NCBI GenBank assembly: GCA_964016885.1
Contig: OZ024747.1
Span: forward strand, 24,800,001 to 24,864,000
From: Eledone cirrhosa
Lineage: Eukaryota
Length of the DNA stretch: 64,000 nt
Direction: 5' to 3'
Positions 2,532-63,676 of this stretch are shown one piece after another (position 1 is the stretch's first letter; every line of letters starts with the position of its first letter). Both the position numbers and the translations under genes were made by a program. The notes beneath the pieces were generated by a model. The model searched no databases. It was not told where the DNA came from and saw only the letters and a program-made list of their open reading frames with translations.

Positions 2532-2773
2532 GTATATATATATATATGTAAATATATATGTATGTATATATATATATATATGTAAATATATATGTATGTA
2601 TGTATATATATATGTAAATATATATATGTATATATATATATATACATATGTAAATATATATGTATATATGTATGTATGTATATATATATATATAACTTTG
2701 AATAACTTTGAAATGTTTTGGCCAGTATTGGCCATGTCTAACTTAATAGCACCACCTGGCGAAGTCTTTCAAT

Positions 2774-5700
2774 TCAGGATTTGGGCACCATGGCCCATTC
2801 GAGAAGAGAATTACTGTTTGCGGAGACATATCCGGGTGTGGGTGGTTTGTCCGGGATTACTTGGAGGAATTTGTTCAAAGACTTCTTGAATTTTGTGTGG
2901 TCAGTTTCTGTTTTGACGTGTCCTGGTGTGATGTTGAAGAGAGCAGGGCCGATTGAGGTGAAATAATTGTGCCGTATTGTTGTTATGAGTTGCGATTTAG
3001 ATTTTTGAATGGGACGGATAGCACGGGGCCCAAGCCTTGGGTGTATCTTGAAGGCGATGCCAACATCATTTGGGCAGTGATGATGGAACATTTTCCACAT
3101 CATGCAGATAATATAACGCTCACGGCGACGTTGGAGTGAGTAAAGTTTCAGGTTTTCTAATCGACCCCAGTAGTCAAGGTCTGACATGCCATCTATCCTT
3201 TTCGTGATTGCCCTTTGAGGAGCTTCAAGTTTCATGATACTTTGTTTCGTGTGGGGAGACCACAGTGGACAACAGTATTCAAGGTGTGGTCGGGCGAAAG
3301 TAGAGAAGAGAAGGATAATGGTGCGGGAATCTCTCGACTGGAAGGTTCTGAGGATCCAGGAACACATTCTGCGGGCCATGTCAACTTTGCTGCTTATATG
3401 CGTGGTCCAGCTTATGTTGCTGTCCACGGTTACTCCCAAGTCTCTGATGTTGTTAGATGCCACGAGAGTTTCCCCGGAGGGAAGGGAGTACGGGAATTTC
3501 AGAGCATCCTCTTTTCCAAAGTGGATCAGTTCGAATTTGTCTTCGTTCAGTAACATGTTGTTCTTTTCTGCCCATTGGGTAACAGCCAGTAGGTCTGACT
3601 GAAGGCTTATCCGGTCATCCACGCCATTGATGACCTTTTGGAGCTTGGAATCATCAGCGAAAATTTTAATGTTGCTGTGTTTGATGATGTCAGTGATGTC
3701 ATTAATATAGATGATGAAGAGAAGTGGGCCCAACACAGTGCCTTGTGGGACCCCACTACTGACTTTGGCTGGGCTTGATTTGACTCCCTCAACTACAACA
3801 TGTTGGGTTCTGTTTGACAGGAAGCTCTTGATCCACTGCAGCAGCTTTCCAGTGACACCAATATTGGACAGCTTTCTCAGTAGAATGTTATGATCAACCC
3901 TGTCAAAGGCCTTGCTGAAATCAAGGTAGATAACATCAGTGTTGGAACCCTCTCCCAAGGCTCTCAAAATGTCATCAAAGTGATGCAGTAGCTGCGTCAG
4001 GCAATCCCTTCCATTACGGAATCCATGCTGGTTGGAGTTCAGCATATTGTTACTCTCAAGGAAGTGGGTCATTCGCGATCTCACCACTCGCTCAAATACC
4101 TTAATGATATGAGAGGTGAGTGAGATTGGACGGTAATTCACGGCAAGGGATTTATTTCCCTTTTTGAAAACTGGGACAACAGACTGGGATAGAAGGTTTT
4201 CTGGCACATATCCAGCATCCAGTGAGTTCCGCCACAGATTGGCAAGAGGAGATGCAAGTTGGTGTTGACACGCCTTCAAGACACAAGCAGGGAACCTATC
4301 GGGACCTACTGCTGAATTATGCTTGATTTCCTTTATTGCCGCCAAGACATCAGGGGCGCCAAACGTTATGTCCGATAAGGTGTAATGGGGAGTAACATCG
4401 CCGATACAGCCCAGATCGGCCATATCAGGATTGCTGAAAACAGAGCAGTATTGTTTCTGCAGTATCTCACCCATGGTTTTAGCATTGTCTTGAAGAGTGC
4501 CATTTTCATCAATTAGAGGGCCAACAGTAGAGCCAGTGATTTTGTGTTTTTTTGCAAATGAAAAGAACACTTTGGGATTGAGTTTGATCTTCTCAATGGC
4601 CCAGGCCTCTTCAGCTCTTCTCTGATTGTTGATGAGGGACATTATGTTGTTTTGGAGGTTATGTTTTTTAATCTCTAGTGATGAAATGGCAGTCAAGTTG
4701 ATGTGTTGCTGCTGACAGTATTTCAGCTTGTTGATTTTTTTGTTCGTTCTCTTAATTTTTCTGATGAGCGTTTTTCTATTTCTAGGGATTCTGCTCTTAG
4801 ATTTGTTTATAGTTCTTAATGGGGTGTGTTTAGCACATATGTTTGTAACAGTGTCCACAAATGTCTGCCAGGACTTTTTGATGTTAGTGGGTGTATGAGT
4901 GTGCGTGAAGGACCAGTCGACATGTGCAAGATCATGACTGATCGCTTCCCAGTTTGCATTGTGGAAATCCATAGCGTCAAACGGATGGACAGGAGAAATG
5001 ACATTGGGTTTGTATATTGGACGGTGGAATCTCAGATCACAGAGAACCATGTCATGATCAGAGAGTAGAGTTTTCTCCACTGCAATATTGTGGATATTGT
5101 CAGTGTGATTGCTGAAAATTAAGTCTAGGACGTTTTTGTGGCACCTCGTTGGTTCGAGCACTAGTTGGGATAGGAAGAAATCATCCATGAAGTCAAGAAG
5201 CGATTCCACAGCTTCCCTGTCAGAGGTTGAGGCAGAAGAACCTGGTGGCAGGCTGTTTGTGGACCAGTCAACTCCGGGGAGGTTGAAGTCCCCCATCATT
5301 AAGATGTTGTCAGGGTGACACTCTTGGATGAAACACTTCATGCTGTTGAGGCATTCCTTGAAGCATGGTACAGGCGTTTGGGGTGGCCTATAGAGCCCAA
5401 CTACTAATAGGTTGTTGGTTTGACTGAATACAGTGACTGCCTCACAGTATCCATTAGTGAATATGTTCATAGCCTCTGTTGAGAAAGAATTATGGACATA
5501 AATGGCAGTTCCGCCCTTTCTTCTGCCAGCGCGATCAGCACGGATGGCTTTGAAATTTTTCACTTTCACCTCGGCTTCCAAGTGGAGGTTACTGAGATGG
5601 GTTTCAGTGAGGACGAAGAAAGGGATGTGGTTTGGATGGACATCAATCCAGTCCTCCAGGAATTTGATCTTCCATTTTTGAGTATTGGTGGAAGGGCTGA

Positions 5701-8316: not shown

Positions 8317-8800
8317 CATATATAGCGGCGATGAATTAGTTTTGCGAGGTTTTTTATATGAAATCGTGTGTCGAAACAAATATTGTTATACTTGGGGAGG
8401 GTCATATTTGTGTAATATTGCCAGAATTAATAACAGAACACACTCACTGTTTGGTTGGTTTTCGCTTCTCGCTTCTGTGTCTTTTATATCGGCAATCTAA
8501 CTTACTCGGTCCTCAATGTTGCCATTGACTGACCGACGGTCAAAAATAATACAGATACAATATAGACATAAACACATATATATAGTTTGTCATAAATCTT
8601 TCGTTGCACATCTGCAACATCGTCAGTGGTGTTATCGTTTCCTCCTGTTGTATTATATGTCTACGCCATTTTTATTCAGTCTGTCTATATATTTATTTAT
8701 TTATTTGCTTGTTTGTTTATTTTATTTTGTCTTCTTTGCGCATGCGCTTGCGTGTGTGTAGTGTTTTGTTTGCTGTGTGATGGGTGACTAGTGTGTGTAA
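7352..8800 (-). mobile_element. Partial tandem PLE pseudo-LTR copies (family B) split by an (AT)n array (7451-8323)
   Basis: 7352-7460 matches 8588-8695. 8325-8790 matches the reverse complement of 63010-63430, the 3' end of the PLE at 60790. Confidence 0.8.
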
Positions 8801-8807
8801 ATCCTAC

Positions 8808-9285
8808 AAACACACGATATCATAAAGAGCAAAAGACAATCTAAGTCAATGAAAAACATCCTGATACATGCCAAAGTACTGCCAACCACAACAACGAAAC
8901 CCACAGTAAAAAAAAATGCGATAGACCCAACTGTGGCATTTGCATCAACCTAATAGAGGGTTCGGAATTCTATTTCAAAGAAGGACAACGTTTTATAGTA
9001 AAACACAATTTCACATGTGCATCGGAAAATATAATATATGTATTAACTTGCTCAGGTTGTCGAGAACAATACATAGGCCAGACCAAAAACAGCCTCCGCC
9101 AACGCATGACTGTCCATAGATCCCAAATTAAAATACGGGAATACAGGAAAATACATTGATACCTGTGCCGCCCAAAATCATCCCAACTTCAGAATCTTTC
9201 CCCTCTACAACTTTAAAGATAATGCCACCCACACCCAGCGCATCAGCAAGGAATCTTACTTTATTAACAAATACGGACCCTCTAA
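8808..9285 (+). pseudogene. Decayed Neptune-type PLE GIY-YIG endonuclease fragment
   Basis: Manual translation gives CDRPNCGIC...FTCASENIIYVLTCSGCREQYIGQTKNSLRQRMTVHRSQI, with frameshifts. Confidence 0.8.
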
Positions 9286-9509
9286 ACACTTCTCCCTAAG
9301 ACGAACCCACAACATACACACGTCAACATACATACCTACATCAGCACACATCTCTACCCACATATAAACACAATGACATACGTAAACACACATGTTCTAT
9401 GGTGCAACACAAATATACACAAATTTGCATACCTTTTGATGTCTATAGATATAAACGTGCCAACACACACACATACATAAACGCACAGATGCATTGCACA
9501 CTGATGGGC

Positions 9510-9805
9510 ACATACATTTTTGTGCACAGGTATTCCAATACGGCAAAGCTTAATGAATTCCCCTTGGAGTACGTGCAATCTGGACACACTCCAGATACAT
9601 ATTTGTACACAGGTATACAATTTCTGGACACACTCCAGATGCATGTGTGCAATTTGTGCACAGGTGTACAGTTTGTGCACAGGTGTACAGTTTGTGCACA
9701 GGTATACAATTTCTGGACACACTCCAGATACATATTTGTGCACAGGTATTCCAATACGACAAGGCCTAAGGAATCCCCTTTCAGTACGTACAATCTGGAC
9801 ACACA
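9510..9805. repeat. Complex minisatellite built from ctggacacactccagat and tttgtgcacaggt modules
   Basis: Repeated modules with palindromic tgtgcaca/tgtaca cores. Confidence 0.8.
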
Positions 9806-10313
9806 CACACACTCACACACGCCTTGGTATTATGCCAATACTATATATCATTTCACACCTTTTATTATTAAGGTTTCTGATGTTCTATTGAGAGAATCGT
9901 TTTTACTGAAAATATCGAATAATGTACACCATTTTACCATGAAAAAAATACTGGTCCACCCACACACACACACACACACATTCTCACACACACACACACA
10001 CACATATATACACACACACATACACACGCGTACATTAACATACAAAGCGACATATACACACACACACACACAGACACTTCTCCGTATAAGACAAGAGCTG
10101 AAAAATATCTTTTAACATGTTAAAATATTCCCCAATCACTTACAGACACATTCCTACTGACCATCCCTCTACCACGAATTACTCTGCTACACACACACAC
10201 ACACACACACACACTTGTCTTAATAGGCATTTGAACTGTCAACAGGCTGCGGTTCGCACACACAACCCTGCTGACCATTATCACAACAACGAACACTTTA
10301 CTACTACTACACA

Positions 10314-10398
<85 letters not shown>

Positions 10399-10807
10399 TT
10401 GTTGTGAAAGAGTCATTTCTCAGTCAGCCGACACAAACCTACATTTGGCGCAAAATCAATTTTTTACATTTACATGACCTCTACCGACCAATCAAAATTG
10501 TTTTGACCACAAGAATTTTTGCAACACGAATTGGCGCAAAATTTATTTTAATACCGCTGGAGCCACTTTTTTAACATAAAAACAGGTAGAATTCCCAAAA
10601 CTTATCAGATCAGAGCAAACATCACGGACGCTCTATCTCAAAATTATTTTTGAAAAGCATTAGAAATGCGCAACCGGTAAAACTTAAAACCAAAACTGAA
10701 TACTAACCAATACAATTACTAATTCTCACATATTCCTAATTAAACTAATTTTCACTGTGAACAATTTGTCAGCATTTTCTATTCCGTTTACCAATATATA
10801 ATAATTT

Positions 10808-12172
10808 GTGTGTTACACCTCTATTCTTTTAAATATCATATCCTCACACGAGATACAGAAAATGCCAACAAAAACGGATACAACCCTCATCAACACAAAT
10901 GAAGAGATTCTACAGGAACTCAAGAAAATTAACACCAACCTATCTTTGCTGGTCGACAAACTTGACTCCACAAATAAGGAAACCGCCACCGGATACAAAC
11001 CCTCCGAAATCGGCGATAAACTCCAAAACCTTTACGATACTATCCAAACTATGTTCACTACTACCAACCCAGGAAAAACCAACGAAGAACCATGTGAGAT
11101 TGATTCATACAAAATGAAAATTCGAACAATTCCAAAATGGAACAAATCCCTCAGAGACAGAAAGTTCTCATTCTGGAAGATGATACAAAATCACAACAAA
11201 GCGGAGATATATGAAAAATGGCTTAACTCAACCCCTCTAACTCTCCCCCGTAAAATACAAATAAAGTCCATTCCAAATGAACCCGAACCTCAAAGACACC
11301 TTAGGGAAAGAATGGCATTGGAAAAAATGAAGACAGAAATTGAACTTCTTAAACTGAGGGCCCAGACAAATGAGGAAAAAATCAAAACCATCGATGAAGA
11401 GATCCTCCTGGAAATCAACAATAAAACTGAAGGCCCCAAGGTAGAGAAGATCTCCAAATTATGGAAAGGGGACTGCAACAGAGAAGAACTGAAATCCCTC
11501 CAACGCTGGGAAAGAAGTGCCGCTTGGTTCCTACACTATGAATCGACTTTTCAAACGGATTACACCTCCAATAACCCGTTCATAAAAATAGGAAAACCCA
11601 TAACTGAACCGCACAACAACTACGCAAACCCCCAAGCCACTAACAAACGAAGAAGGAAGCACCACACCGAAGATGAACTTCCCAACCTCGCAACCATAAG
11701 AAGGAACAAAAACCCTAGAAATCATCTCCCCCAGAATGACATTTACAACTTTCCCCCTTCAAGGAGACACCATACCAAATCACTCAACTACTACGCGGAT
11801 GCCTCATCGTCAAACACAGGGAAAAGATACCACCACCATGATAGATGTAACAACTTCCCCGCTTCAAGGGGACAGCAAGGTAATTTCCATTTTCTCAACT
11901 CTCGCTTCCGCAATACACAACAAACCCACACCACACGATACAACCAACAACGTAGGCCACCTATAACACCACAATCCAACATGACACATAGAAACACACA
12001 CCCATACTCGCAGTACAGGAACACTCCATTCAATCTACAATCACCAACCCGAACCACATTTTACAACAACAAGGAATATAACAAACACAGGGGACCACTT
12101 AACATCAGCAGACAACCCCTCTACCCCAACCATTTTTTAGACACAGCACACAGATACAGGCAAACAAAATAA
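10808..12172 (+). CDS. Putative PLE ORF1: coiled-coil N-half, basic/low-complexity C-half
   Basis: 454-aa open frame with normal complexity (likely start ATG 10862), ending HFL... just over the start of the RT frame. Confidence 0.7.
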   Translation: MCYTSILLNIISSHEIQKMPTKTDTTLINTNEEILQELKKINTNLSLLVDKLDSTNKETATGYKPSEIGDKLQNLYDTIQTMFTTTNPGKTNEEPCEIDSYKMKIRTIPKWNKSLRDRKFSFWKMIQNHNKAEIYEKWLNSTPLTLPRKIQIKSIPNEPEPQRHLRERMALEKMKTEIELLKLRAQTNEEKIKTIDEEILLEINNKTEGPKVEKISKLWKGDCNREELKSLQRWERSAAWFLHYESTFQTDYTSNNPFIKIGKPITEPHNNYANPQATNKRRRKHHTEDELPNLATIRRNKNPRNHLPQNDIYNFPPSRRHHTKSLNYYADASSSNTGKRYHHHDRCNNFPASRGQQGNFHFLNSRFRNTQQTHTTRYNQQRRPPITPQSNMTHRNTHPYSQYRNTPFNLQSPTRTTFYNNKEYNKHRGPLNISRQPLYPNHFLDTAHRYRQTK

Positions 12173-14276
12173 TACAAGACAGGGAGGAGAAACCGATAGT
12201 AATAAAAATTATCAATCTTACTAGTGCAGAACCAACACCCAACCTTATCAACTTACTCTCCAAAGGTCTTAAATTCACACGACCCCACTACGTCCTAACT
12301 ACTATGAAATGAAGGAAGACATCACAGACTTCTGTAGAAAGTTACGACTCAGTGAACAACTATTCGACCAGTACAATGAGGATGAATCATTAGCCAGAAA
12401 TAGAAGCAATTACACCCCATCAAAAGGTAAAAATAAAATCCTGGACGAATTCTGTGAACACATCACAAACTTCCCTTACCAACACTTGCACAGACAAAAA
12501 CACAAGCCAAAGCTCAACAAGAAAGATTGGGAAGAATTAAATAGATTAAAAACCGACAGAACCATTACAATTAAAGAGGCTGATAAAGGGAGTACAGTAG
12601 TCCTAATGGAGACAGAATTCTATGTCAACTTAGCGCTCTCCACTTTGGAAAACGAAACATACTACGAAAAGGCTGAACACTACAATCAACAGAAAATTAT
12701 GAGAAACCTAAAAACTCTGATCAACCAATACAAAGAAGGACTCACTAACAAGGAATTCAGCTTCATCACAGACTTCACAAGTAAATCCAGCCTTTTCTTC
12801 GGTATCCCTAAAGTACATAAAAGCGAATTAATAAGTAAGGCATGCAAGGAAGCCACAGACATAGTCATCAATGTCCCCTCACCCAATGATCTCAAATTAA
12901 GACCTATAATAGCAGGCCCCGCTTGCGAAACCCACCGCCTTAGCAACTTCATTGATACCCTCCTCAAGCCTTTTCTCAAACACATCAAAAGCTATATAAG
13001 GGACGACCTAGATATGCTCAATCACCTCCCTAATATGCCACTTTCTGAACAAACCCTACTAGTGACGTTCGATGTAGTCAACCTATACTCCAACATCCCC
13101 CACAACCTAGGAATAGAAGCTATCCAATTCTGGCTGGATAATTACCACAATGAACTCCCACAACGCATCAAAAAAGAATTCGTGATAGAGGGACTCAAAT
13201 TTATCTTGGAGAACAATTACTTCGTTTTCAATAACAAACCCTACAGGCAGAAATCTGGGACCGCTATGGGAACGAAAACAGCCCCCACTTATGCCAACCT
13301 AGTCATGGGATACCTGGAAATCACCCTCTACACTAAAGTCCTAAACAAATTTGGAAACACTCTCCACTTACACATAGAAAGGAACTGGAAGCGATATCTA
13401 GATGACTGCTTCATCCTTTGGCACGAAAGCATCGAGAAACTTAAAGAATTTCACACCCTTATAAATGGGCTCAACACGAATATTAACTTCACGATGGAAT
13501 ACAGCCATCAACAACTCCCCTTCCTCGACATCCTCATTAAGATCCATAACAAAAAAATAGAAACAGACATATACTACAAGCCCACAGACTCCAAGCAATA
13601 TCTTCCTTTCAACTCTTGCCACCCTAGACACGTTAAAATTAATATTCCCTACAACTTAGCCAAGAGAATCTGTACTATAGTCTCCAATAAAAACACCTGC
13701 TACTTACGGCTACAAGAACTAAAGGACACACTCATAGGCAGGGACTACCCTGCATCACTAATTGACAATGGAATCCAACGTGCCCTAAAACTACCTAGCC
13801 GTAGGAACACGTGCAACCCAGTAGTTAGTACTAACTGTAATTGTAGGAATCGGGCTGATTGCCCCCTATCCGGGAAATGCCTCTCTAGTAACATTGTCTA
13901 CAAATGTAAGGTTGTAACACCCACGTCCCGTAGGGCCTACATAGGGTTAACCGCCAATAGTTTCAAGCAGCGTCTTTACATGCATACCCATTCTTTTCGC
14001 TACCCTCTAAGAAGGAATATGACGTCACTTTCAGCTTATATCTGGAGTCTAAAAGACAACCACACCCAATATAAGTTACACTGGGAGATCCTAGCTAGGG
14101 CTAGATCGTATAACGGAAATAAAAGACCATGTGACCTCTGTGCCGCTGAGGCCCGGGAAATACTCTACGCCACAGACCACATCTTAAACAAAAAATCTGA
14201 GGCAATTTCGGCTTGTAAACATAAATTGCACAAAACTTTCCTGTATTACAGCCCCACATTATACCCTAACGGATAG
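12133..14276 (+). CDS. PLE reverse transcriptase + GIY-YIG endonuclease (655-aa ORF from 12309; N-terminal motif in an adjacent frame)
   Basis: IINLTS...LLSKGLKF in the frame starting 12133; KEADKGSTVV, FGIPKVHK, LRPIIAG, FDVVNLYSNI, GTAMGT, RYLDD, YYKPTD; then CNC..CPL..CL..VY...YIG. Confidence 0.9.
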
Positions 14277-14757
14277 TACGATCTATACGTGGATATTTTA
14301 CGTCTTGATGTGGGAGCTAAGCATATGTTTTGTTTATACCATTACTTATTTGCATAGCGAACGTTTCCACGAACCAAAGTATCGTCTTCCTGTCTTCCTC
14401 CGGTTACAACGTTTTTTTGAAATATCCAGTTCTGCGTTTACAGATTGACTTTGTTAGTTTCAGAAGATCCCGTTAAGGGTGAAAGCATCGATTCTTTCCT
14501 TAAGTTTAATCTGTTATTTTAATAAATATTTTCTCTACGGTTCTTATATATTTGATATATATTTATCCTTATCGAGCCCTCTTTGGATTTTAGTCTTCAA
14601 ATTTATTATTATTACTATGTATAAATATATATATGTATAAATATATATATGTATATATATGTATAAATATATATATGTATAAATATATATATGTATATAT
14701 ATGTATATATATGTATAAATATATATATGTATAAATATATATATGTATATATATGTA

Positions 14758-15475: not shown

Positions 15476-15547
15476 GTATATATATGCATAAATATATATA
15501 TGTATAAATATATATATGTATATATATGTATAAATATATATATGTAT

Positions 15548-16872
15548 AGACAAACATAGAATATTCGAAAATATTCTGTATGTTTATAATAAACATTTCG
15601 AAGACCCAATCGCTATAGAATAGAATACATCATGTATTACAATTTGAGATTCTCGATAAAAGCAAGGGAAGTAACCTACGCGTTTCATTCTTATTAGAAA
15701 TCATCAGGATTACATATCCAGTGCTTTTATCGAGAATGACACAGCTAGAGACTTATAGAATACTTAGCTGTGTACAGGAACTGGTTTGAAAGAGCGGTTG
15801 CCGGTCCGGCAGAAATTAGAATTTGGATATAGCGATTGGGTCTTCGAAATGTTTATTATAAACATACAGAATATTTTCGAATATTCTATGTTTGTCTTCA
15901 CATATATATCGCTATTTCAGAGCATTATATCCAAATTCTAATTTCTGCCGGACCGGCAACCGCTCTTTCAAACCAGTTCCTGTACACAGCTAAGTATTCT
16001 ATAAGTCTCTAGCTGTGTCATTCTCGATAAAAGCACTGGATAAGTAATCCTGATGATTTCTAATAAGAATGAAACGCGTAGGTTACTTCCCTTGCTTTTA
16101 TCGAGAATCTCAAATTGTAATACGTGACGTATTCTATTCTATAGCGATTGGGTCTTCGAAATGTTTATTATAAACATACAGAATATTTTCGAATATTCTA
16201 TGTTTGTCTTCACATATATATCGCTATTTCAGAGCATTATATCCAAATTCTAATTTCTGCCGGACCGGCAACCGCTCTTTCAAACCAGTTCCTGTACACA
16301 GCTAAGTATTCTATAAGTCTCTAGCTGTGTCATTCTCGATAAAAGCACTGGATATGTAATCCTGATGATTTCTAATAAGAATGAAACGCGTAGGATACTT
16401 CCCTTGCTTTTATCGAGAATCTCAAATTGTAATACGTGACGTATTCTATTCTATAGCGATTGGGTCTTCGAAATGTTTATTATAAACATACAGAATATTT
16501 TCGAATATTCTATGTTTGTCTTCACATATATATCGCTATTTCAGAGCATTATATCCAAATTCTAATTTCTGCCGGACCGGCAACCGCTCTTTCAAACCAG
16601 TTCCTGTACACAGCTAAGTATTCTATAAGTCTCTAGCTGTGTCATTCTCGATAAAAGCACTGGATATGTAATCCTGATGATTTCTAATAAGAATGAAACG
16701 CGTAGGTTACTTCCCTTGCTTTTATCGAGAATCTCAAATTGTAATACGTGACGTATTCTATTCTATAGCGATTGGGTCTTCGAAATGTTTATTATAAACA
16801 TACAGAATATTTTCGAATATTCTATGTTTGTCTTCACATATATATCGCTATTTCAGAGCATTATATCCAAAT
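15548..16872 (+). repeat. 312-bp tandem repeat x3.3 (15829, 16141, 16453, 16765) preceded by an inverted copy (15548-15829); retrozyme-like
   Basis: Exact 312-bp spacing of atagcgattgggtcttcg; one HHR per unit; no ORF. Confidence 0.92.
16042..16088 (+). ncRNA. Minimal type I hammerhead, family E (copies 16354-16400, 16666-16712, and ~15669-15713 on minus)
   Basis: aagtaatc CTGATGA t-ttct aata agaa-t GAAA cgcg TA ggttactt, enclosed by a perfect 16-bp stem attctcgataaaagca/tgcttttatcgagaat. Confidence 0.88.
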
Positions 16873-31147: not shown

Positions 31148-32306
31148 AGCTGCTGCAGTGGATCAAGAGCTTCCTGTCAAATAGAACCCAACATGTTGTA
31201 GTTGAAGGAGTCAAATCCAGCCCAGCCAAAGTCAGTAGTGGGGTCCCACAAGGCACTGTGTTGGGCCCACTTCTCTTCATCGTCTATATTAATGACATCA
31301 CTGACATCATCAAACACAGCAACATTAAAATTTTCGCTGATGATTCCAAGCTCCAAAAGGTCATCAATGGCGTGGATGACCGGATACGCCTTCAGTCAGA
31401 CCTACTGGCCGTTACCCAATGGGCGGAAAAGAACAACATGTTACTGAACGAAGACAAATTCGAACTGATCCACTTTGGAAAAGAGGATGCTCTGAAACTT
31501 CCGTACTCCCTTCCCTCCGGGGAAACTCTCGTGGCATCTAACAACATCAGAGACTTGGGAGTAACCGTGGACAGCAACATAAGCTGGGCCACGCATATAA
31601 GCAGCAAAGTTGACATGGCCCGCAGAATGTGTTCCTGGATCCTCAGAACCTTCCAGTCGAGAGATTCCCACACCATTATCCTTCTCTTCTCTACTTTTGC
31701 CCGACCACACCTTGAATACTGTTGTCCACTGTGGTCTCCCCACACGAAACAAAGTATCATGAAACTTGAAGCTCCTCAAAAGGGCAATCACGAAAAAGAT
31801 AGATGGCATGTCAGACCTTGACTACTGGGGTCGACTAGAAAACCTGAAATTTTACTCACTCCAACGTCGCCGTGAGCGTTATATTATCTGCATGATGTGG
31901 AAAATGTTCCATCATCACTGCCCAAATGATGTTGGCATCGCCTTCAAGATACACCCAAGGCTTGGGCCCCGTGCTATCCGTCCCATTCAAAAATCTAAAT
32001 CGCAACTCATAACAACAATACGGCACAATTATTTCACCTCAATCGGCCCTGCTCTCTTCAACATCACACCAGGACACGTCAAAACAGAAACTGACCACAC
32101 AAAATTCAAGAAGTCTTTGGACAAATTCCTCCAAGTAATCCCGGACAAACCACCCACACCCGGATATGTCTCCGCAAACAGTAATTCTCTTCTCGAATGG
32201 GCCATGGTGCCCAAATCCTGAATTGAAAGACTTCGCCAGGTGGTGCTATTAAGTTAGACATGGCCTGGGCCAATACTGGCCAAAACATTTCAAAGTTATT
32301 CAAAGT

Positions 32307-33359: not shown

Positions 33360-35339
33360 GTTCTAGTATTAAGGTAGAGAGAGATATATGTGGTTAGGAG
33401 AGAAAACAGCCGTTACATAGAGAGAAAAGAAAAATATCCAGATATAAAACGAGGCAGATTTAAAACATTATGTTTCATCAATGTAAAAATATCAATTCGT
33501 ATGAATTAGGTATTATAATGTAAATATCAGTATTCATGAATGAGACACGTATGAATAATGTGTGAAAAATAATGATCATATGTCTAGTTTAAAATTCCTA
33601 GGTTTATATCAGAGTTGAGTTAAAAAACTGAGATAAAAAAAACTGAGATAAAAAACTGAGATAAAAAACTTCAAAAAAAAAATTGAAATACATAAGTATA
33701 TATGCACTTTCATGAAAAAAGAAAAAGAAAAAGAAAATAGAAGGTTATCCCAGATTCGATACTATAGACTTCCATGTGAATTTACGTGATCAACTCTGCA
33801 AATTCCTATTTCACATGAAAACATTCTCTTGTGCTATAAAAATTCTAGTATACATATATGTGTACATACACACAAATATATATAGAATCTACATTAATTT
33901 TAACAATACTATTCTTGTCTTTACTCTACATGATTATCGTTCAAGCATAAATAGACAACAGATATCAATATATCAATAAAAATATCAAAAAATAAAAAAA
34001 TATTAAAAATAAAAAATATTAAAAATAAAACACAGTATGCCCCGCAAATCAACCACAGAGATCAACCCTTCAAAATTAATTGACAATATATTGCCAAGTT
34101 CATTATAAGCATCAGAATCAAAAGCAAACAAAACCAAAATTATTTACCAAATCCTGTCTAGCAGAAATCATTCCAAAAGTTTAGGATACCCATTTGATCT
34201 ACAGATGGTCTTATATTTATTATAGAAGTTTATCTAGTGTAAAATTTATTCGATATATTTGGAGCATCGGCTTTTAGGGTAGTTTAATTATTCATGAAGA
34301 ATGTTTAAAAAAAAGAAATCGAAAGATTTATCGGCGAGTTTCATAAATAATTATAAATCAAAGTAAATATACTACATTTTAAATTTATATTTATATTTAA
34401 AAGTTGAGTTCAATCTATGTCTGCAGCAACTGAATAAATTTGTCCGTAAATTAAGGGAATTTTTAGATTTTAGTATAAAGAATATCTCCTCCGCGCAGAG
34501 GTCACATGTCTCAGAGGATGAATTAAAAGGAATCCCTCTTGAGACTATATTCCAAGCCGTCGAATATCCAACGTTATCATGCTTAAGTTGCCAGAGTAAG
34601 CCTGATAGTGATGTTGAAGATTTTTTGCTTGGATCTGTGAAAGAATTCTTGTGGTTATTATAGCGAAGTTTAAATTCTGTCGAGGTGGAACCAACATAGT
34701 TAAAAGAATTTAAGTCCGTTTTAACATTACAGTTGTATATTATATTTTTAACTAAGCAATTGTTATTTAACGGACATTTAGATCTATCTCTACAGTTACA
34801 TTTGTTTACTTGGATATTATTTATGCTATTATCGGTATTTTGGCTAGGTTTTAAATTCCTATTATTTATTCTATTAATATTTTGTGCTAAATTTTTGGTG
34901 GATGAGTAAGTTAATTTTATAGTATGTCTATTGAAAATTGAGTGATACCTATGTGTTCTAGGGAAGCGATTATCAAGAGCATTAAAAAATAGTTTAGCGA
35001 TGTGGGTTTTAATGTTTAGTGAGAAAGGGGGGGGGGGGGCAAACCATATTATATTCCTAGTTCTATTTCTTTTTTGGCTTTTGGAATTATTGTAATGCTT
35101 TCTATTATAGTTGTTAAAGTTGTTGCCGTAATTAAAATTGTTGTTATTTTGGTTAGTTTGTCTATTATTATCTATGTGCATAATTTTATCACTATATCCT
35201 GCTCTAGCTAACGCTTCATTGTAATACTGGGCTTTTTCGTCGAAAATCTTTTTATTAGATGAGATTCTAGAGATACGTTTTTGAACAGAGTTCACTATGC
35301 ACATAGATAATAATAGACAAACTAACCAAAATAACAACA

Positions 35340-36463: not shown

Positions 36464-36465
36464 GT

Positions 36466-38435
36466 AACTAAGGATTACCGTAAAACTAATCGGCGCGTCA
36501 TCAATGAAATCAACGATGCTGGGTTTAAAATCACATCTGATCTCAACATCCTGGACCGGACCGAACCTCTGGACCCTATCTCTCCCCACTTTACCCTGAA
36601 GGATCACAAATCCAATTTTCCGAACAACCCCTCTATTCGGCTTATTAACCCTACGAAGTCCGATTTAGGTAGACTTAGTAAAACGATTCTTGATAGAATT
36701 ATACCTGAAATTAGAAGTTTGGCCTCTCTCGCACTGTGGAACAATTCTTTCGCGGTGATTGATTGGTTCAACGGCATATGTAACAAGGAACATTGCCGTT
36801 TTATCCAATTCGACATCAACAATTACTACTCCTCCATCACTTTACCACTTCTCCTTAGAGCTATCAATTTCGCTAAAACATTCACAGTGGTTAAGGATTT
36901 TGAAGTTGATGTCATCCTTAATGCCCGAAAGTCGGTGATTAATTTCGACGACTCTATTTGGATTAAAAATCCAATAGTACCCCATTCGACGTGAGTATGG
37001 GCGCCAGTGACTCTGCGGAGGTTACTGATCTTATTGGCCTTTTCCTTCTTTTCTCTATCAAGGACGAATTCCCCAACGCGGGCGGTGGTTTGTACCGTGA
37101 CGATGGTCTTTTGACCATGACTAAGTGCGGACCTCGTGCTTGCGACAGGTTCAGAAAAGAACTCACAGCCTTCTTTAAAAGCTTCAACCTCTCTATACAG
37201 GTTGAGGCCAATCTCTCGGTCGTTAATTACCTCGACGTTACCCTCAATTTATGGAATGGGTTGTATTACCCGTATAGAAAGCCGAATGATACGCTTAATT
37301 ACATAAGTAAGCATTCCAACCATCCTGCCAGCATAACCAAGAACCTGATAAGAAACGTTTCGTTGAGGCTTTCCCGTCTTTCCACCAACGAGCGCATCTT
37401 CAACGACCATTCCACTTATTACAATGAAGCTCTTGCTCGAAGTGGATTTGTCGATAAGGTAGCATATACAGAGTACGAAAATAGACCTAGAAGAAATAGA
37501 TCCCGTCGCATTTGTTGGTTTAACCCACCATATAATATGGAGGTGGCCACACCATTAGCTAAGATCTTTCTTTCCCTTATTACGAAGCATTTTCCCCCTA
37601 CACATAAATATAGTAAAATTTTTAATAGAAATACTATTAAAATTTCTTAATCTACGACTCCTAACCTTGCACATAACATCACAGCTTCAAATTTAGCTAA
37701 ACTACCTAGCCGTAGGAACACGTGCAACCCTGTAGTTAGTACTAACTGTAATTGTAGGAACCGGGCTGATTGCCCCCTATCCGGGAAATGCCTCTCTAGT
37801 AACATTGTCTACAAATGTAAGGTTGTAACACCCACGTCCCGTAGGGCCTACATAGTGTTAACCGCCAATAGTTTCAAGCAGCGTCTTTACATGCATACCC
37901 ATTCTTTTCGTTACCCTCTAAGAAGGAATATGAAGTCACTTTCAGCTTATATCTGGAGTCTAAAAGACAACCACACCCAATATAAGTTACACTGGGAGAT
38001 CCTAGCTAGGGCTAGATCGTATAACGGAAATAAAAGACCATGTGACCTCTGCGCCGCTGAGGCCCTGGAAATACTCTACGCTACAGACCACATCTTAAAC
38101 AAAAAATCTGAGGCAATTTCGGCTTGTAAACATAAATTGCACAAAACTTTCCTGTATTACAGCCCCACGTTATACCCTAACGGATAGCACGATCTATACG
38201 TGGATATTTTACGTCTTGATGTGGAAGCTGAGTATATGTTTTGTTTATTCCTTTACTTATTTGCATAGCGAACGTTACCACGAACCAAAGTATCGTCTTC
38301 CTGTCTTCCTCCGGTTGCAAGGTTTTTTGAAATATCCAGTTCTGCGTTTACAGATTGACTTTGTTAGTTTCAGAAGATCCCGTTAAGGGTGAAAGCAGCG
38401 ATTCTTTGCTTAAACTTTAATCTGTTATTTTAATA
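36466..38435 (+). mobile_element. 5'-truncated PLE (CNC-CPL type): RT + GIY-YIG with frameshift (~36970) and stop (37650), plus 3' UTR
   Basis: [66 protein letters not shown]. Confidence 0.9.
38366..38416 (+). ncRNA. Hammerhead-like motif with CAGAAGA core, family C (more decayed copy 14456-14506)
   Basis: agttt CAGAAGA t-ccc gttaa ggg-t GAAA gca...tgc TT aaact; U4 replaced by A. Confidence 0.55.
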
Positions 38436-42609: not shown

Positions 42610-44624
42610 AATATATAAGATCAAAAGATGGTTAAATGAGTTCCATGTATTTTATTATGCGCATTTCAAAAACAAATATCATCATGCAATAACATTTGTG
42701 TTTTCATCAGATAAAATAGGAAGACATGATATGAAGGTTAAAAACACTTGTGGATAGTGCAGTTTTAAATCAACATATGAAAAGTAGTTTTAGATTGATG
42801 TGTGATATTGGGGAAAAAAAATGTTTATGGGGGGGGATGAAAAAGAGGAGGAGATGAGAGTAAAAAGTGGAGGGGGAGGAGTATAATGAGGAAGGATGAG
42901 ATAGGAGGAGAGATGGCTGATAGAGAGAGAGAGATAGCTTTTATAACTGAGAAAAATATATTGTTTTACATAGAGAGGCTGAAAAACCGTTGGAAGATAA
43001 TGTATAAATTAAAAGAATTTGAAAATTAACGAAGAGAAAAATAATGTAAATTTAAGGTTTGTATATTGAAGGGTTTAATAATATGTGCGATGAAAAGAAA
43101 TTGTTAATATGTATTAAGAATAATATTTAAGGGTTTAGTAATATGTGCGATGGAAAGAAAATGTTGATATGTATTATTAAAAAAAAACACAGAAGCAATG
43201 TAAGTAAGGATATATTCTGAGATGAGCATGAATAAGTTAGATGAAAGTGAGAAAAAGTGAGAAAAAATAATGAATAGAGGATGAATAATCTAACGTCAAA
43301 AAAATGTTTATGTTTACGAAGGATTTTTTTCAAGGTGATATAAAGTAACAATATAGTGTATGTGTAATAATTGTTTCTATGTTAGGCACAGTGAGAAAAG
43401 GTACAGATTAGGGGTTAGAAATTAAAAGAAAAAGCAAAGGAAAAGAGCAGGAAAAGGAAGAAAGAGAAGTGATGAATAGGAATGATATAGAATGTGATAA
43501 ATAACTTTGAAATAAGGTAGAAAGATGGGTTTATTTTTAAAGAAGTATATATATATATATGTGCCTTTGAGAAAAGGATTCTGAATTGATAAAGTTTAGG
43601 ATATTAGCTGTATACTTTATGGAAAGTTCTGTGGAATTTATGCAAGCAGATAGAAAGCAAGTCAGTGCGTCTATTTATTATAGAATCTAAATTAGATATA
43701 ATGGTAAATTTTTCATTCAGACAGAGATTGCAAGTCTTGGATAGAGAACTGTTCAAGTATGGGGAAGCAGAGGAAACCTTCTTCCAAGAGATGTTATAGT
43801 TAATATTTTTGTCTTTCAAGGACCATATGAGTTCTGAGAGAGCCGTGTTGGTTCTTTTAAGTTTATATTTAAAAGACGAATGATGAATATAAAGACGAGC
43901 TTTAAAGGAGGTGGAAGTGGGACCAAAATAGGTGAAGGAATTGGTGTCAGTTATAACTTTACATTCGTAAATTAAGTTTTTATCAAGACAATGGTTGTTG
44001 AGAGGACATTTATTTTTAGCAGGGCAATTGCAATTGCAATTAGAGAGATTATTAACGAGTGACCTAGTGTTATCTATAGAAGGAATTGGATTGGAGAAGT
44101 TATTTGCGATAGGAATAATAGTTTCTTGATTTAGAATGGGATTAAGAACATTTAGCGAAGTTGTGTTTGACGTTGTATTAGGGTTTGCAGAAATTAGCCT
44201 AGGGTTTACAATGACGTCGGGAGTGCTATTACTATTATTATGATATTCAGTGTTGGAAGGAAGAGATTTAGTATTTAGTATTTTATTGTTGTGTTTAGAG
44301 ATAATGTTGGAAATGTTGGAGGATGTAGAATAGGAAAATGTTATAGTGTGTTTGTTAAATATTTTACTATAGATATGTGAGGGAGAGAAGCATTTATTTA
44401 AGGCACTAAAGAATAATTTAGGAATATTATTATTAATAGAGATAGAGAAAGGAGCATTATACCAGATTATGTTTTTGTATCTAGGTCTTTTATTACAGTT
44501 ATTGGAATGATCATGATTAATTATTCTACTGTAAGATTTTCTCGAATTTGTTTCTTTATTATATTTGATTTTATCAGGATAGCTGGCTTTAGAAAGCGCG
44601 TTATTATAGTAATTGGCGTTAGCA
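42610..44624 (-). mobile_element. 5'-truncated PLE (CNC-CPL type): GIY-YIG ORF 43604-44624, 3' UTR ending in HHR family A
   Basis: YYNNALSKASY, IIWYNAPF, CNCPAKNKCPL..CL..LIY..YFG..FKARL..H. Confidence 0.85.
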
Positions 44625-44927
44625 TCTTTTTGGTAAATATCATCTTGGTTAAGAGAGTGGGACTGGCTTTGTGCAGTGCCTTTGCTCACTATAAAAGCTT
44701 CACGGCACAGGCATTGCTTTATATCTGGAGATCTCTCTGCACTTGTCGTCACATGGTACCATGGGCCCAGCACTATGTGTCAGTAATTGTCACAAGTGTA
44801 GTGTTTGTACCAGTGTTTTCAAGTCGCTGGCTGGACTAAAAAGTCACACTCGTTCAGCGCATCGGTAGGGGTTCTCCTACATGGATATACAGTATTGGCC
44901 GTACTCGAAAACGAGTTGGCAGCCACC

Positions 44928-52932: not shown

Positions 52933-53985
52933 TATACACACAAAAATAAATACACATACACATAGGTATGTGGAGGGCAAAACAAAAATAATATATGGGG
53001 GGGGGCTAAGAGGAGGTAAAAATATAAGGGGAGGTAAGAGAGAAAAAATGTTAAATATACAAGAGTACAGAAGGTAGAATCAGCAAAATAAAAACCGTAG
53101 CAGAAGTAAAGAGCAGAGAAGGAGTTCAAGGCGGTTGATTTATCGTAGGAGTGTCAATCCAGTTACAGATCAGATGCGATTTCAGATGAGGACAGCATCT
53201 GAAGATCTCAGTCTTTGAATTAAGGCAAGCGGAAGTGGCTCTCAAGTTTAGCAAAATCCTATACTTTTCTGTGGTACACAAAGAACAATTCTTTGTGCCC
53301 CTTTGGTACTCCCTCGAATGGTCTAATATAGACCAATCAATAGAGTACGGGATATTACTATCCTTGAGATCCCATACCTTACTTGCGAGGGCCGTTGATG
53401 TTCGTTTATCTGAGTGTTTAAAAGAAGCGACATGTGAGTAAAATCTGGTTTTAAACCTGTCCTGGGTCATACCGACATATCGCTCACTTCTGGCTGGCTG
53501 GTTGTTGATAACTGGCGTTATCTTAGCCTCATAAACGACAGATTTTGTGTTACATTTACCCTGCAATGGGCATTCATCCGGCTTCCTGCAACTGCATCCT
53601 GGATTTATCCTCGTACGGTTTGAACTGGTGATTTTGGACTTCATGGATGGGCAACAAGAGTAGCTGATCTTAACTACATTCCTATTAAAAATCTTATAAT
53701 ATCTATGAATAGGAGGAAAATGTTTGTCTAATAGTTCAAGGAATTTCCTTCCTACATTAGTTTTGACATTTAGAGAGAAGGGGTGTGTGAACCAAATAAT
53801 CTTCCTTTTCCTGTTATTATGGTTAGTTTTAGGGGGGGGGAGTAGGTAAATAAGAAATATTTTCTGTAAAACCGCTGTTCTTAAGGGCTTTATTATAATA
53901 AGGGGCAGCTTTATTAAAAATGTCTATAGACGAAGATAAAGTAGAAATCCTACGGCTAATGTTAGGAATAACATTATTAAAAACT
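52660..53985 (-). mobile_element. 5'-truncated PLE (CNC-CPL type): thumb + GIY-YIG (ORF 53126-53644, extending upstream) and 3' UTR
   Basis: CSCRKPDECPLQGKC..VVYEAKI..YVGMT..FKTRFYSH..CSLCTTEK..LN. Confidence 0.85.
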
Positions 53986-54719: not shown

Positions 54720-56820
54720 CATAGAATATTAATCTGCAGTTAAATCATAATATGTGTTTACATAGTTGTATCAGCTTTAGGAAATGGTATTTGTAAGAAA
54801 GAAGGCTAAATTATGTATTTTAATATAAGTAGAATATTAATTATAGGTTAATTAAAGTAAAAATAGTTAATATATTAATTTCTAAGGTGTATACTACTTA
54901 GGTTTATAATATTTAAAGCGGAATTTTGAAGTTAAACAGTAGTAGAGTATTAATTATAGCATAACTAAATTAAAAATAATTACATATATTAACATGATGG
55001 TATCAATTTTAGGAAATGAATTTTGTAATAGGGAAAGCCAAATTAAGTATTTCATCGGTAGTAGAATATTAATTATAGGTTAACTAAATTAAAAATTATA
55101 TATTAATTTCTATAGTATATGTTAATTAGGTTTATAATAATTAAAGCAAAATTTTGTATTTTATCTATAGTAGAATTAGGTTAACTAAATTAGGTTAACT
55201 AAATTAAAATTAATCTATATATTAATTTGTAAAGAGTATATTAATTAGGTATATATTTAAAAGTTTTTCTCAGTTTATGATTACACGATATTCTGCAATC
55301 CATCTGTATTAGAATTTTAATTATAAGCTAACTAAATTAAAATTATAGGTTAACTAAATTAAAATTAATTTATATATTAATTTCTAAATTGTATATTAAT
55401 TAGGTTTATAATATTAAAAAGTATTTCTCCGTTATTAATTACACGATATTTTGTTGTATTTCATCTGTAAAAGAATTTTAATAAAAGGTTAAATAAACTA
55501 AAATTAATCTATATATTAATTTCCAAAGTATATATTAATTATGTTAATAATATTTAAATGTTTTTCACAGTTTATGATTATACGATATTTTTTAATTTCA
55601 TCTGTTGTAGAATTTTAATTAAATTAAAATTATAGGTTAACTACATTAAAATTAATTTATATATTAATTTCTAAAATATATATTATTAATTAGGTTTATA
55701 ATATTTAAATGTTTTTCTCAGTTTATGATTACACGATATAATTAATTCCTGTCGCTTATTTAATTGGATATCCTTAGATTTCATTATTTCAAATAGTTCT
55801 TGGGAACACAATCTACATTCATTTCTATTATTTTGATAAGGGGTGGCTCTTTTGAGCACACTCCAGGTCATATCATATTCTATATTCTTATTTCTATAAC
55901 TATTAATTTTTTCTGCTAGAGATGTTGTATTAGCTAGTGCGGCATTTTTAAAACTATGTTTGTGGGTATTAAACCTTACCTTAAAATTGTTAGAAGTAGC
56001 TCCTATATATGAGCAAATAGAATCTTTAGTTTTAACTTTACATTTATAAACTATGTTGTTAACAAGACAATTTCCTTTTAATGGGCAGTTTGCTTTGTTT
56101 CTACAGTTACAACCTTTCGTTAATTCTGTATTTGAGGAGATATTATGGTTAGTTTGATGTATTGGTGGTATACTTATGGTTTTTTTACATTTATATGCAT
56201 TATAGGCACTTATATTTTGTTTTATGATTTTGGTTGTTGAGTATGAGAATTTAACTGTTGATCTATTTAAGATTTGATGGTATTTGTGGTTTGGCGGGAA
56301 GTTTTTCTCTAGGATATTAAAAAATTTTTTAGGTATATTATCCTTAATTTGTAAATTAAATGGAGCATTATACCAAGTAACTCGTCTATTACGGTTTCTA
56401 TGTTGTTTATTGTTTTTATAGGATGCATCCTGATGTTTACTAGGAGGATTAATGTTAATGACCTCACCACGCACATTTTTAGTTAGATTTATTGATTTAG
56501 GTGTTTTAGCTTGTTTATTAGGAGTTTTATTATTAACATTTATTAGAGTTGTATGATGAGTAGTTTTTTGAGAGTTACTATACTTTATATTAGAGGAGTT
56601 AGAGAAATTTGGTTTTATGTTGGTATTTTGGGGTATAGTGTGAGTGGCATTTAGGTGTGTACTTTTCATTTGGTGTTTGTTGGTAATATTAAGTTGTATG
56701 TTTATAGTTTTATTAGTAGAAGGTATATATTCCAATCTATTTTTGTGGCCACTTCTATCTAGAGCTTCGTTATAGAAGGTCGCATTTTTATCAAATACAT
56801 CTTGGTTAGACGAAAGGTTA
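54720..56820 (-). mobile_element. 5'-truncated PLE (CNC-CPL type): GIY-YIG ORF 55686-56735 and repeat-rich 3' UTR
   Basis: WYNAPF, CNCRNKANCPL..CL..IVY..YIGAT..FKVRFNTH. Confidence 0.85.
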
Positions 56821-56926
56821 GAAATTAGAAATTAGAAATTTTTTATGTATTTCATTGGTCTATTTAAAATCTGTTCCCAAACAGACCTGTAATTTTGAAT
56901 TGTTGTTATTATCAATAAATATGCAT

Positions 56927-63430: not shown

Positions 63431-63676
63431 AACTATATATATATGTATATATATATATGTATATATGTATATATATATATGTATATATATATATGTATAT
63501 ATATATATGTTTATATATGTATATATATATATGTATATATATATATGTTTATATATGTATATATATATATATGTATATATATATATACATATATAAACAT
63601 ATATATATATACATATATATACATATATATATATACATATACATATATATATATATATATAGATATATATATATAC

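What the first reader, a model, noticed from the sequence alone, without database searches (positions are those of the whole stretch)
12309..14524. In-frame chimera: Neptune-type RT fused to the endonuclease and 3' end of a different PLE lineage
Seen: 13788-14524 is near-identical to 37699-38434, but upstream of the shared aaactacc junction the two RTs are very different (RYLDD/YYKPTD type versus LYRDDGL/WFNPPY type). The 655-aa frame is unbroken across the junction. Inference: template switch or microhomology-guided nested insertion, creating an RT with a swapped GIY-YIG and terminal ribozyme, a possible route for PLE module shuffling.
Basis: partly seen in the sequence, partly recalled or inferred. 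Interest (0 to 1): 0.72.

Follow-up and report, generated by a model that had tools for sequence, protein, structure and literature searches.

The report
One-off hybrid of two Penelope retrotransposons
Two unrelated jumping-gene families are joined in frame at this spot, but the join occurs once in the genome and the hybrid gene is damaged, so it is likely a dead copying accident that shows how such families could swap parts, not a swap that took hold.

Summary
The chimera is real in the assembly. A Neptune-type Penelope-like element (family A) runs to 13792 and continues in frame into the endonuclease and 3' end of a Hydra-clade element (family B). Only AAACT (13788-13792) is shared by both parents. 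The 655-aa frame is not a clean swap: a private 1-nt loss near 12281 cuts it off from family A's N-terminus, and the join removes a ~75-aa connector kept by both clades. No remainder of A lies downstream, so it is not a plain nested insertion. The B part is a spliced, 5'-truncated cDNA ending in (TA)n. Best reading: reverse transcription began on B RNA and jumped at 5-nt microhomology onto A (about 0.5); joining to a resident A copy with deletion is the close rival (0.35). Ten of 80 long A copies are broken by other sequence, so such joins are routine here. Read support was not obtained. The scan's notes held no earlier finding of this fusion.

The parts
8380..8798 (-). 3' end of a third PLE family (C, the family at 61336-63430), inverted, abutting family A head-to-head with no shared letters
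   Evidence: 88% over 440 nt to 63005-63438 in reverse; junction letters
8799..10841 (+). Family A 3' part (endonuclease remnant + 3' UTR) in direct partial tandem, i.e. a 2.0-kb pLTR; starts about 150 nt past the junction position of the unit
   Evidence: second longest upstream tandem of 81 copies; two private deletions at 9153 and 9281
10862..12172 (+). Family A ORF1, intact
   Evidence: 455-aa stop-to-stop frame 10805-12172; no Pfam match
12133..12139 (+). TTTTTTA heptamer where ORF1 and ORF2 overlap; likely -1 frameshift site (inferred)
   Evidence: AACCATTTTTTA in 53 of about 70 aligned long copies; frames
12280..12281 (+). Private 1-nt loss that takes ORF2's N-terminus (LSKGLKF...) out of frame with the RT; that frame stops at 12312
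   Evidence: 7 of 7 aligned siblings hold the base; 49 of 54 readable long copies have the 7-nt form, none the window's form, 19 unreadable
12309..13792 (+). Family A (Neptune-type) RT, from an internal Met to the end of the thumb helices
   Evidence: RVT_1 E 3e-7; 93.5% to family A
13788..13792 (+). Junction: 5-nt microhomology AAACT
   Evidence: unique in genome
13788..14276 (+). Family B (Hydra clade) CxCx5C linker and GIY-YIG endonuclease, one private change (L616R)
14357..14358 (+). Exon junction: family B's 750-nt GT..AG 3'-UTR intron is spliced out
   Evidence: intron at L118 3304-4053; 145 spliced versus 2308 unspliced exact junction matches
14443..14512 (+). Hammerhead-like motif of family B (core CAGAAGA...GAAA), with private changes at 14488, 14498 and 14502-14504
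   Evidence: no Rfam match and no significant fold
14513..14617 (+). Family B tail to its canonical 3' end, followed by (TA)n
36464..38434 (+). Separate 5'-truncated, spliced family B copy; not the donor of the chimera's 3' half
   Evidence: 95.5% over 779 nt, below the best other copies (97.8%), different diagnostic alleles

Best explanation
This is a single-copy join of a Neptune-type element's 5' part to a Hydra-clade element's spliced 3' end at five shared bases, likely made when a reverse transcriptase jumped from one RNA to the other, and likely dead since. Shown: the join, its uniqueness, the spliced and 5'-truncated B part ending in (TA)n, the upstream frameshift, the lost connector. 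Inferred: priming at (TA)n on a spliced B RNA, about 830 nt of synthesis, a jump at AAACT onto a tandem or circular A RNA, about 5.0 kb more (97% of one unit, through ORF2, ORF1 and into the previous unit's 3' end), and closure on the left against a cDNA of family C primed from the other DNA end. The frame survived by a one-in-three chance.
For: Unique junction (the 4 other A copies followed by A are ordinary A). Spliced B part with canonical 3' end. Microhomology is usual at this family's 5' joins: 3 or more overlapping letters at 14 of 34 self-inverted junctions by BLAST overlap, which overcounts. Jumps along A RNA are common: 6 of 80 long A copies skip internally to A's own 3' end (5 by script, L211 by eye). 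The B half is not younger than the A half: 11 of 826 versus 21 of 2946 private changes, p 0.09, and both are among the least changed copies of their families, which fits one event. The upstream tandem is the second longest of 81 copies and total A length is close to one unit. No A remainder within the window, 30 kb beyond it or 10 kb before it. Two-transcript insertions of both orientations are described for L1 (PMC11702581, section 7 read).
Against: Nothing here separates a jump between RNAs from joining to resident DNA. The predicted link between long upstream tandems and broken 3' halves is weak: 5 of 16 versus 6 of 64 at 900 nt, p 0.04 at one of four thresholds tried, and the rank test points the other way, p 0.12. 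Only one other broken copy (L200) is near unit length. Several broken A copies continue into (TA)n or into elements of opposite orientation, which needs DNA-level loss, not a template jump. The three-RNA reading of the left end has no test behind it.
Confidence: 0.5

Rival explanations
1. Family A was already inserted here. Family B primed at A's 3' (TA)n and its truncated 5' end was joined to A about 2.2 kb upstream at AAACT, deleting A's 3' half; or an adjacent A and B were later fused by a microhomology-mediated deletion.
For: A ends in (TA)n, the target at B 3' ends. 10 of 80 long A copies lose their coding 3' part to other sequence with no remainder found in 2.4-5.1 kb plus about 8 kb more. 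A Penelope 5' junction made by microhomology into another retrotransposon without target duplication is described (PMC3846280, passages); 1-10 kb deletions at L1 insertion sites are cited in PMC11702581 (passages).
Against: B carries no fewer private changes than A. It needs a 7.2-kb A copy; 2 of 64 complete copies have an upstream tandem of 1500 nt or more, none 2000.
Confidence: 0.35
2. The junction is an assembly artefact (chimeric read or mis-join).
For: It is single-copy in a repeat-rich assembly.
Against: The join sits on a 5-nt microhomology (chance 0.006), too short for an overlap mis-join (own knowledge of assemblers). The B half has a proper 3' end and matches none of 79 other copies above 97.8%; similar A breaks occur at 10 other loci.
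Confidence: 0.1
3. It is the founder or a member of an active family with Neptune RT and Hydra endonuclease.
For: In-frame join at the end of the thumb helices; endonuclease residues intact; both domains fold in the model, mean pLDDT 83, pTM 0.72.
Against: One copy. Upstream frameshift. Connector lost: 28 residues between thumb and Zn-finger versus 77-106 in 76 of 86 measured homologs and 96-211 in 7 Hydra-type proteins. Of the 120 best homologs listed (of 632), 104 carry an A-type endonuclease, 16 none, 0 a B-type. Its 5' repeat is A's and its 3' end is B's, so it cannot rebuild matching pLTRs.
Confidence: 0.03

Closest known systems
Neptune-type PLEs (Craig et al. 2021, PMC8557442; read: abstract, sections 3, 11, 15, passages)
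   Same: Family A has GxKF and DKG motifs, a CX2-5CxxC linker, a CCHH GIY-YIG endonuclease, partial tandem and inverted pLTRs and (TA)n ends.
   Different: This copy has lost the connector, the Zn-finger linker and the endonuclease of family A. Neptune versus Nematis was not settled by a reference tree; the label rests on motifs and recall.
Hydra-clade PLEs (same paper, section 11)
   Same: Family B has RWR (for RWK), DKT, CxCx5C, no CCHH, CxxC and CxH around the catalytic E and N, and (TA)n insertion.
   Different: Only the last 162 residues and the 3' UTR are present here; the hammerhead-like core reads CAGAAGA in 121 of 128 copies, not the canonical core.
Chimeric retrotransposon insertions from two transcripts, and microhomology-joined 5' truncations (L1: PMC11702581, section 7 and passages; Penelope Pen2_Av: PMC3846280, passages)
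   Same: Same-orientation join of two templates at short microhomology; opposite-orientation join at the other end; no target duplication.
   Different: Here the partners are two deeply diverged PLE clades and the join happens to fuse RT to endonuclease in frame.
Endonuclease exchange between PLE clades, proposed by Craig et al. 2021 (section 17, passages)
   Same: The product has the architecture such an exchange would start from.
   Different: The proposed exchanges are ancient and fixed; this is one damaged copy that also drops a domain both clades keep.

Membership tests
Neptune-type PLE (family A) | RT with N-terminal GxKF and DKG motifs | tested here: met
   KGLKF and EADKG in family A ORF2; in this copy KGLKF is out of frame with the RT
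Neptune-type PLE (family A) | CX2-5CxxC linker and CCHH GIY-YIG endonuclease at the C-terminus | tested here: met
   CDRPNCGIC and TCSGC..YIG..H..H in sibling L033; absent from the chimera's frame
Neptune-type PLE (family A) | Placement with reference Neptune rather than Nematis RTs | not tested
   No named reference sequences were at hand; the tree uses unnamed homologs
Hydra-clade PLE (family B) | RWK-type motif and DKT in place of GxKF and DKG | tested here: met
   RLRWRAF and HSDKTG in L118, L142
Hydra-clade PLE (family B) | CxCx5C linker, no CCHH, CxxC and CxH flanking E and N | tested here: met
   CNCRNRADC, CDLC, CKH
Hydra-clade PLE (family B) | Insertion into (TA)n | tested here: met
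   3' ends printed for 30 spliced copies, most running into (TA)n
Hydra-clade PLE (family B) | Canonical hammerhead near the 3' end | tested here: inconclusive
   Hammerhead layout with a CAGAAGA core; Rfam gives no match at 14443-14512; fold z about -1
Active chimeric PLE family | More than one copy of the junction | tested here: not met
   1 match with up to 2 mismatches in 2.996 Gb
Active chimeric PLE family | Complete polyprotein reachable from the element's own start | tested here: not met
   1-nt loss near 12281; connector deleted
Active chimeric PLE family | Transcription and enzymatic activity | not testable with these tools
   Needs RNA data of this individual and an assay
Plain nested insertion | Remainder of the host element downstream, with target duplication | tested here: not met
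   No family A sequence downstream in the window or 30 kb beyond

The most novel reading that the evidence does not exclude
One insertion was built from RNAs of three PLE clades: primed on Hydra RNA at the right end, jumped onto a circular or tandem Neptune RNA and read almost exactly one turn, and closed at the left end on a cDNA of a third family. With same-strand Neptune-to-Hydra joins at 2 more of 80 long copies (L220, L242), PLE enzymes would be trading templates across clades all the time, supplying the raw material for the RT/endonuclease exchanges that have so far only been inferred from trees.
Probability: 0.3. Interest if true: 0.5.

Novelty: new member of a known kind. Interest (0 to 1): 0.25.

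Why it matters
Exchange of endonucleases between PLE clades has been proposed from trees (PMC8557442) without a caught intermediate that my searches found. This locus shows that an in-frame inter-clade RT-endonuclease fusion can arise from a 5-nt match, and that cross-family joins are common in a PLE-rich genome. It also shows why most go nowhere: the join is not homologous, removes a domain, and did not spread. As a single dead copy it changes no model by itself.

Tried and rejected
Read support: no RNA holder was listed. Logan contigs of five runs (X1, X2, X3 of one sample, X4, X5) were laid; no listed contig bridges 13788-13792, and X4 and X5 show only the parental continuations. Lists are cut and filtered and the samples may be other individuals, so this is no evidence either way. 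The 37.7-kb copy as local donor: rejected, it is less alike than other copies. Hidden sister chimeras: the 4 other A copies followed by A are point variants; among 604 ORFs with a 75% hit to a 20-protein family panel in 1.85 Mb of fetched loci, only this fusion joined two families (panel limited). P0010, a high scorer with low coverage, is a duplicated RT, not a chimera. An endonuclease-only search gave 3 proteins, all Hydra-type throughout. First classification of broken A copies miscounted microsatellite-rich UTRs and was replaced. Long-pLTR test: weak. No solved structure by sequence; fold search returns telomerases and other polymerases and does not name the connector. Rfam: no hammerhead call for family B. 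A paper on octopus repeats (PMC13282606, passages) had nothing on chimeras. Supplements of PMC8557442 (consensus and hammerhead lists) were not read and may bear on the clade labels and on the CAGAAGA core.

Full report
Setting. The window is G000:C7:24,800,001-24,864,000 of a 3.0-Gb animal assembly, dense in (TA)n and Penelope-like elements (PLEs). Named homologs come from molluscs, octopus among them.

Observation. 13788-14516 matches 37699-38427 at 96.8% and the frame 12273-14276 is open across the junction. The N-terminal 493 residues from the ATG at 12309 are 93.5% identical to family A; the last 162 are 98.1% identical to family B; the two RTs share about 20%. Separate trees put the chimera with A for RT and with B for the endonuclease (Nem61k is a long branch, and rows without a cuttable RT were left out of the RT tree). 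Family A reads ...CCCTAAAACT|CAGTACCC and family B ...TTAGCTAAACT|ACCTAGCC, so only AAACT is shared; chance 0.006 for a random join.

Copy number. A 31-nt junction pattern with up to 2 mismatches has 1 match in the assembly. The A side has 1230 exact 22-mer matches, 1225 followed by C, G or T; the 4 others followed by A are ordinary A copies. A B endonuclease 30-mer has 2487 exact matches. In a 301-nt BLAST, 39 of the 40 scored matches stop at the junction (2175 candidates).

Anatomy. From left: (TA)n; an inverted 3' end of a third family C (8380-8798); family A's own endonuclease and 3' UTR as a 2.0-kb direct tandem (8799-10841); ORF1; an overlap at TTTTTTA, likely a -1 frameshift site (inferred; PMC8557442 Fig. 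1 legend notes frameshifted ORF1s in some PLEs); ORF2 to the end of the thumb; AAACT; family B's linker, endonuclease and 3' UTR to 14617; (TA)n. Family B has a 750-nt GT..AG intron in its 3' UTR that most copies keep (2308 versus 145 exact junction matches; 66 kept of 71 readable among 92 copies). This copy lacks it, so its 3' half passed through a spliced RNA. No A remainder lies downstream, which excludes a plain nested insertion.

The hybrid protein is unlikely to work. (1) A private 1-nt loss near 12281 ends ORF2's N-terminal frame at 12312; the 655-aa ORF starts at an internal Met and lacks LSKGLKF. That loss may be later than the join. (2) Profile comparison aligns A's segment LKALPYISTHNP...KNILTHAK with B's RRICWFNPPY...NLAHNITASN (probability 95%, E 4e-8 over thumb plus connector). 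The join leaves A before this connector and enters B after it: 28 residues separate thumb and Zn-finger against 77-106 (median 101) in 76 of 86 measured homologs. In a model of a full-length homolog the connector is a confident strand-helix-helix-helix-strand unit (residues 554-608); in the chimera's model the junction is disordered (499-507 under 50). (3) The hammerhead-like motif has private changes in stems I and III. (4) None of the 120 best listed homologs (of 632) pairs this RT with a Hydra-type endonuclease.

How common. Of 80 other A copies that hold the pLTR-ORF1 junction (80 of 169 pattern matches fetched), 64 have a complete coding region, 6 skip internally to A's own 3' end and 10 are broken by other sequence (L211 reclassed by eye). 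Two continue on the same strand into other Hydra families (L220; L242 after a short inverted piece), one into a non-coding repeat (L230), two into inverted elements (L212, L216), two into (TA)n (L200, L237), three into unidentified sequence. Among 83 B copies with a resolvable 5' flank, 39 abut an inverted piece of B, 14 a microsatellite, and at least two an inverted end of another family. Joins across families are therefore part of the ordinary debris; an in-frame RT-endonuclease fusion was seen once in 604 family-assigned ORFs.

Mechanism. Shown: B primed at (TA)n from a spliced RNA and was 5'-truncated at a 5-nt match to A. Inferred: the match was found on A RNA. For: equal or greater load of private changes in B (11 of 826) than in A (21 of 2946; the script missed the 12281 loss), p 0.09, both halves young for their families; an unusually long tandem and a total A length of 4994 nt, about 97% of a unit; frequent internal jumps in A. 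Against: the long-tandem association is weak and threshold-dependent, and DNA-level losses of A's 3' half plainly occur. PLEs are transcribed as tandem RNAs and start reverse transcription at internal sites on AT-rich nicks (PMC11167929, main text read), which makes the first route available; microhomology 5' joins without target duplication (PMC3846280, passages) and deletions at insertion sites (PMC11702581, passages) make the second available. I put them at 0.5 and 0.35, artefact at 0.1, active family at 0.03.

Novelty. Chimeric retrocopies are a known kind. An in-frame Neptune-Hydra fusion was not found in print by my searches (library limited to open papers) or in the scan's notes. It illustrates a route for the endonuclease exchanges proposed in PMC8557442 but is not evidence that the route succeeded. 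Clade names rest on the motifs given in that paper; Neptune versus Nematis for family A was not tested with references.

Noticed in passing
window 15536-16870: Tandem and inverted array of a 312-nt unit with a CTGATGA...GAAAC hammerhead core at 16050, 16362, 16674 (+) and 15707 (-), ending in (TA)n; looks like a retrozyme.
   Followed up: partly
window 14461-14467 and family B: Hammerhead-like core reads CAGAAGA in 121 of 128 family copies, a fixed change at the second core position; activity unknown.
   Followed up: partly
window 12133-12139: Family A ORF1 and ORF2 overlap at a conserved TTTTTTA heptamer, likely a -1 frameshift; no stable hairpin follows directly.
   Followed up: partly
L200 (G000:C1:150259241-150269170): Family A copy permuted to about one unit plus 200 nt, ending in (TA)n 25 nt past the chimera's junction position.
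   Followed up: partly
L229 and L231: Two independent family A copies break at the same base, just before TATAAAT inside the RT, each followed by different sequence; possibly a cleavage hotspot.
   Followed up: no
L220 and L242: Family A continuing on the same strand into two other Hydra families; further cross-clade joins, not RT-endonuclease fusions.
   Followed up: partly
window 34375-35301, 43607-44779, 53129-53923, 55689-56831 (-): Four more Hydra-type families, three with Asn-rich stretches in the linker region.
   Followed up: no
window 2702-3836 and 31158-32299: Two 98% identical copies of a LINE in opposite orientation; the first has a 1033-aa open frame.
   Followed up: no
window 36464-38434: Both family B copies in this window are of the rare spliced form (about 6% genome-wide) yet carry different alleles.
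   Followed up: partly
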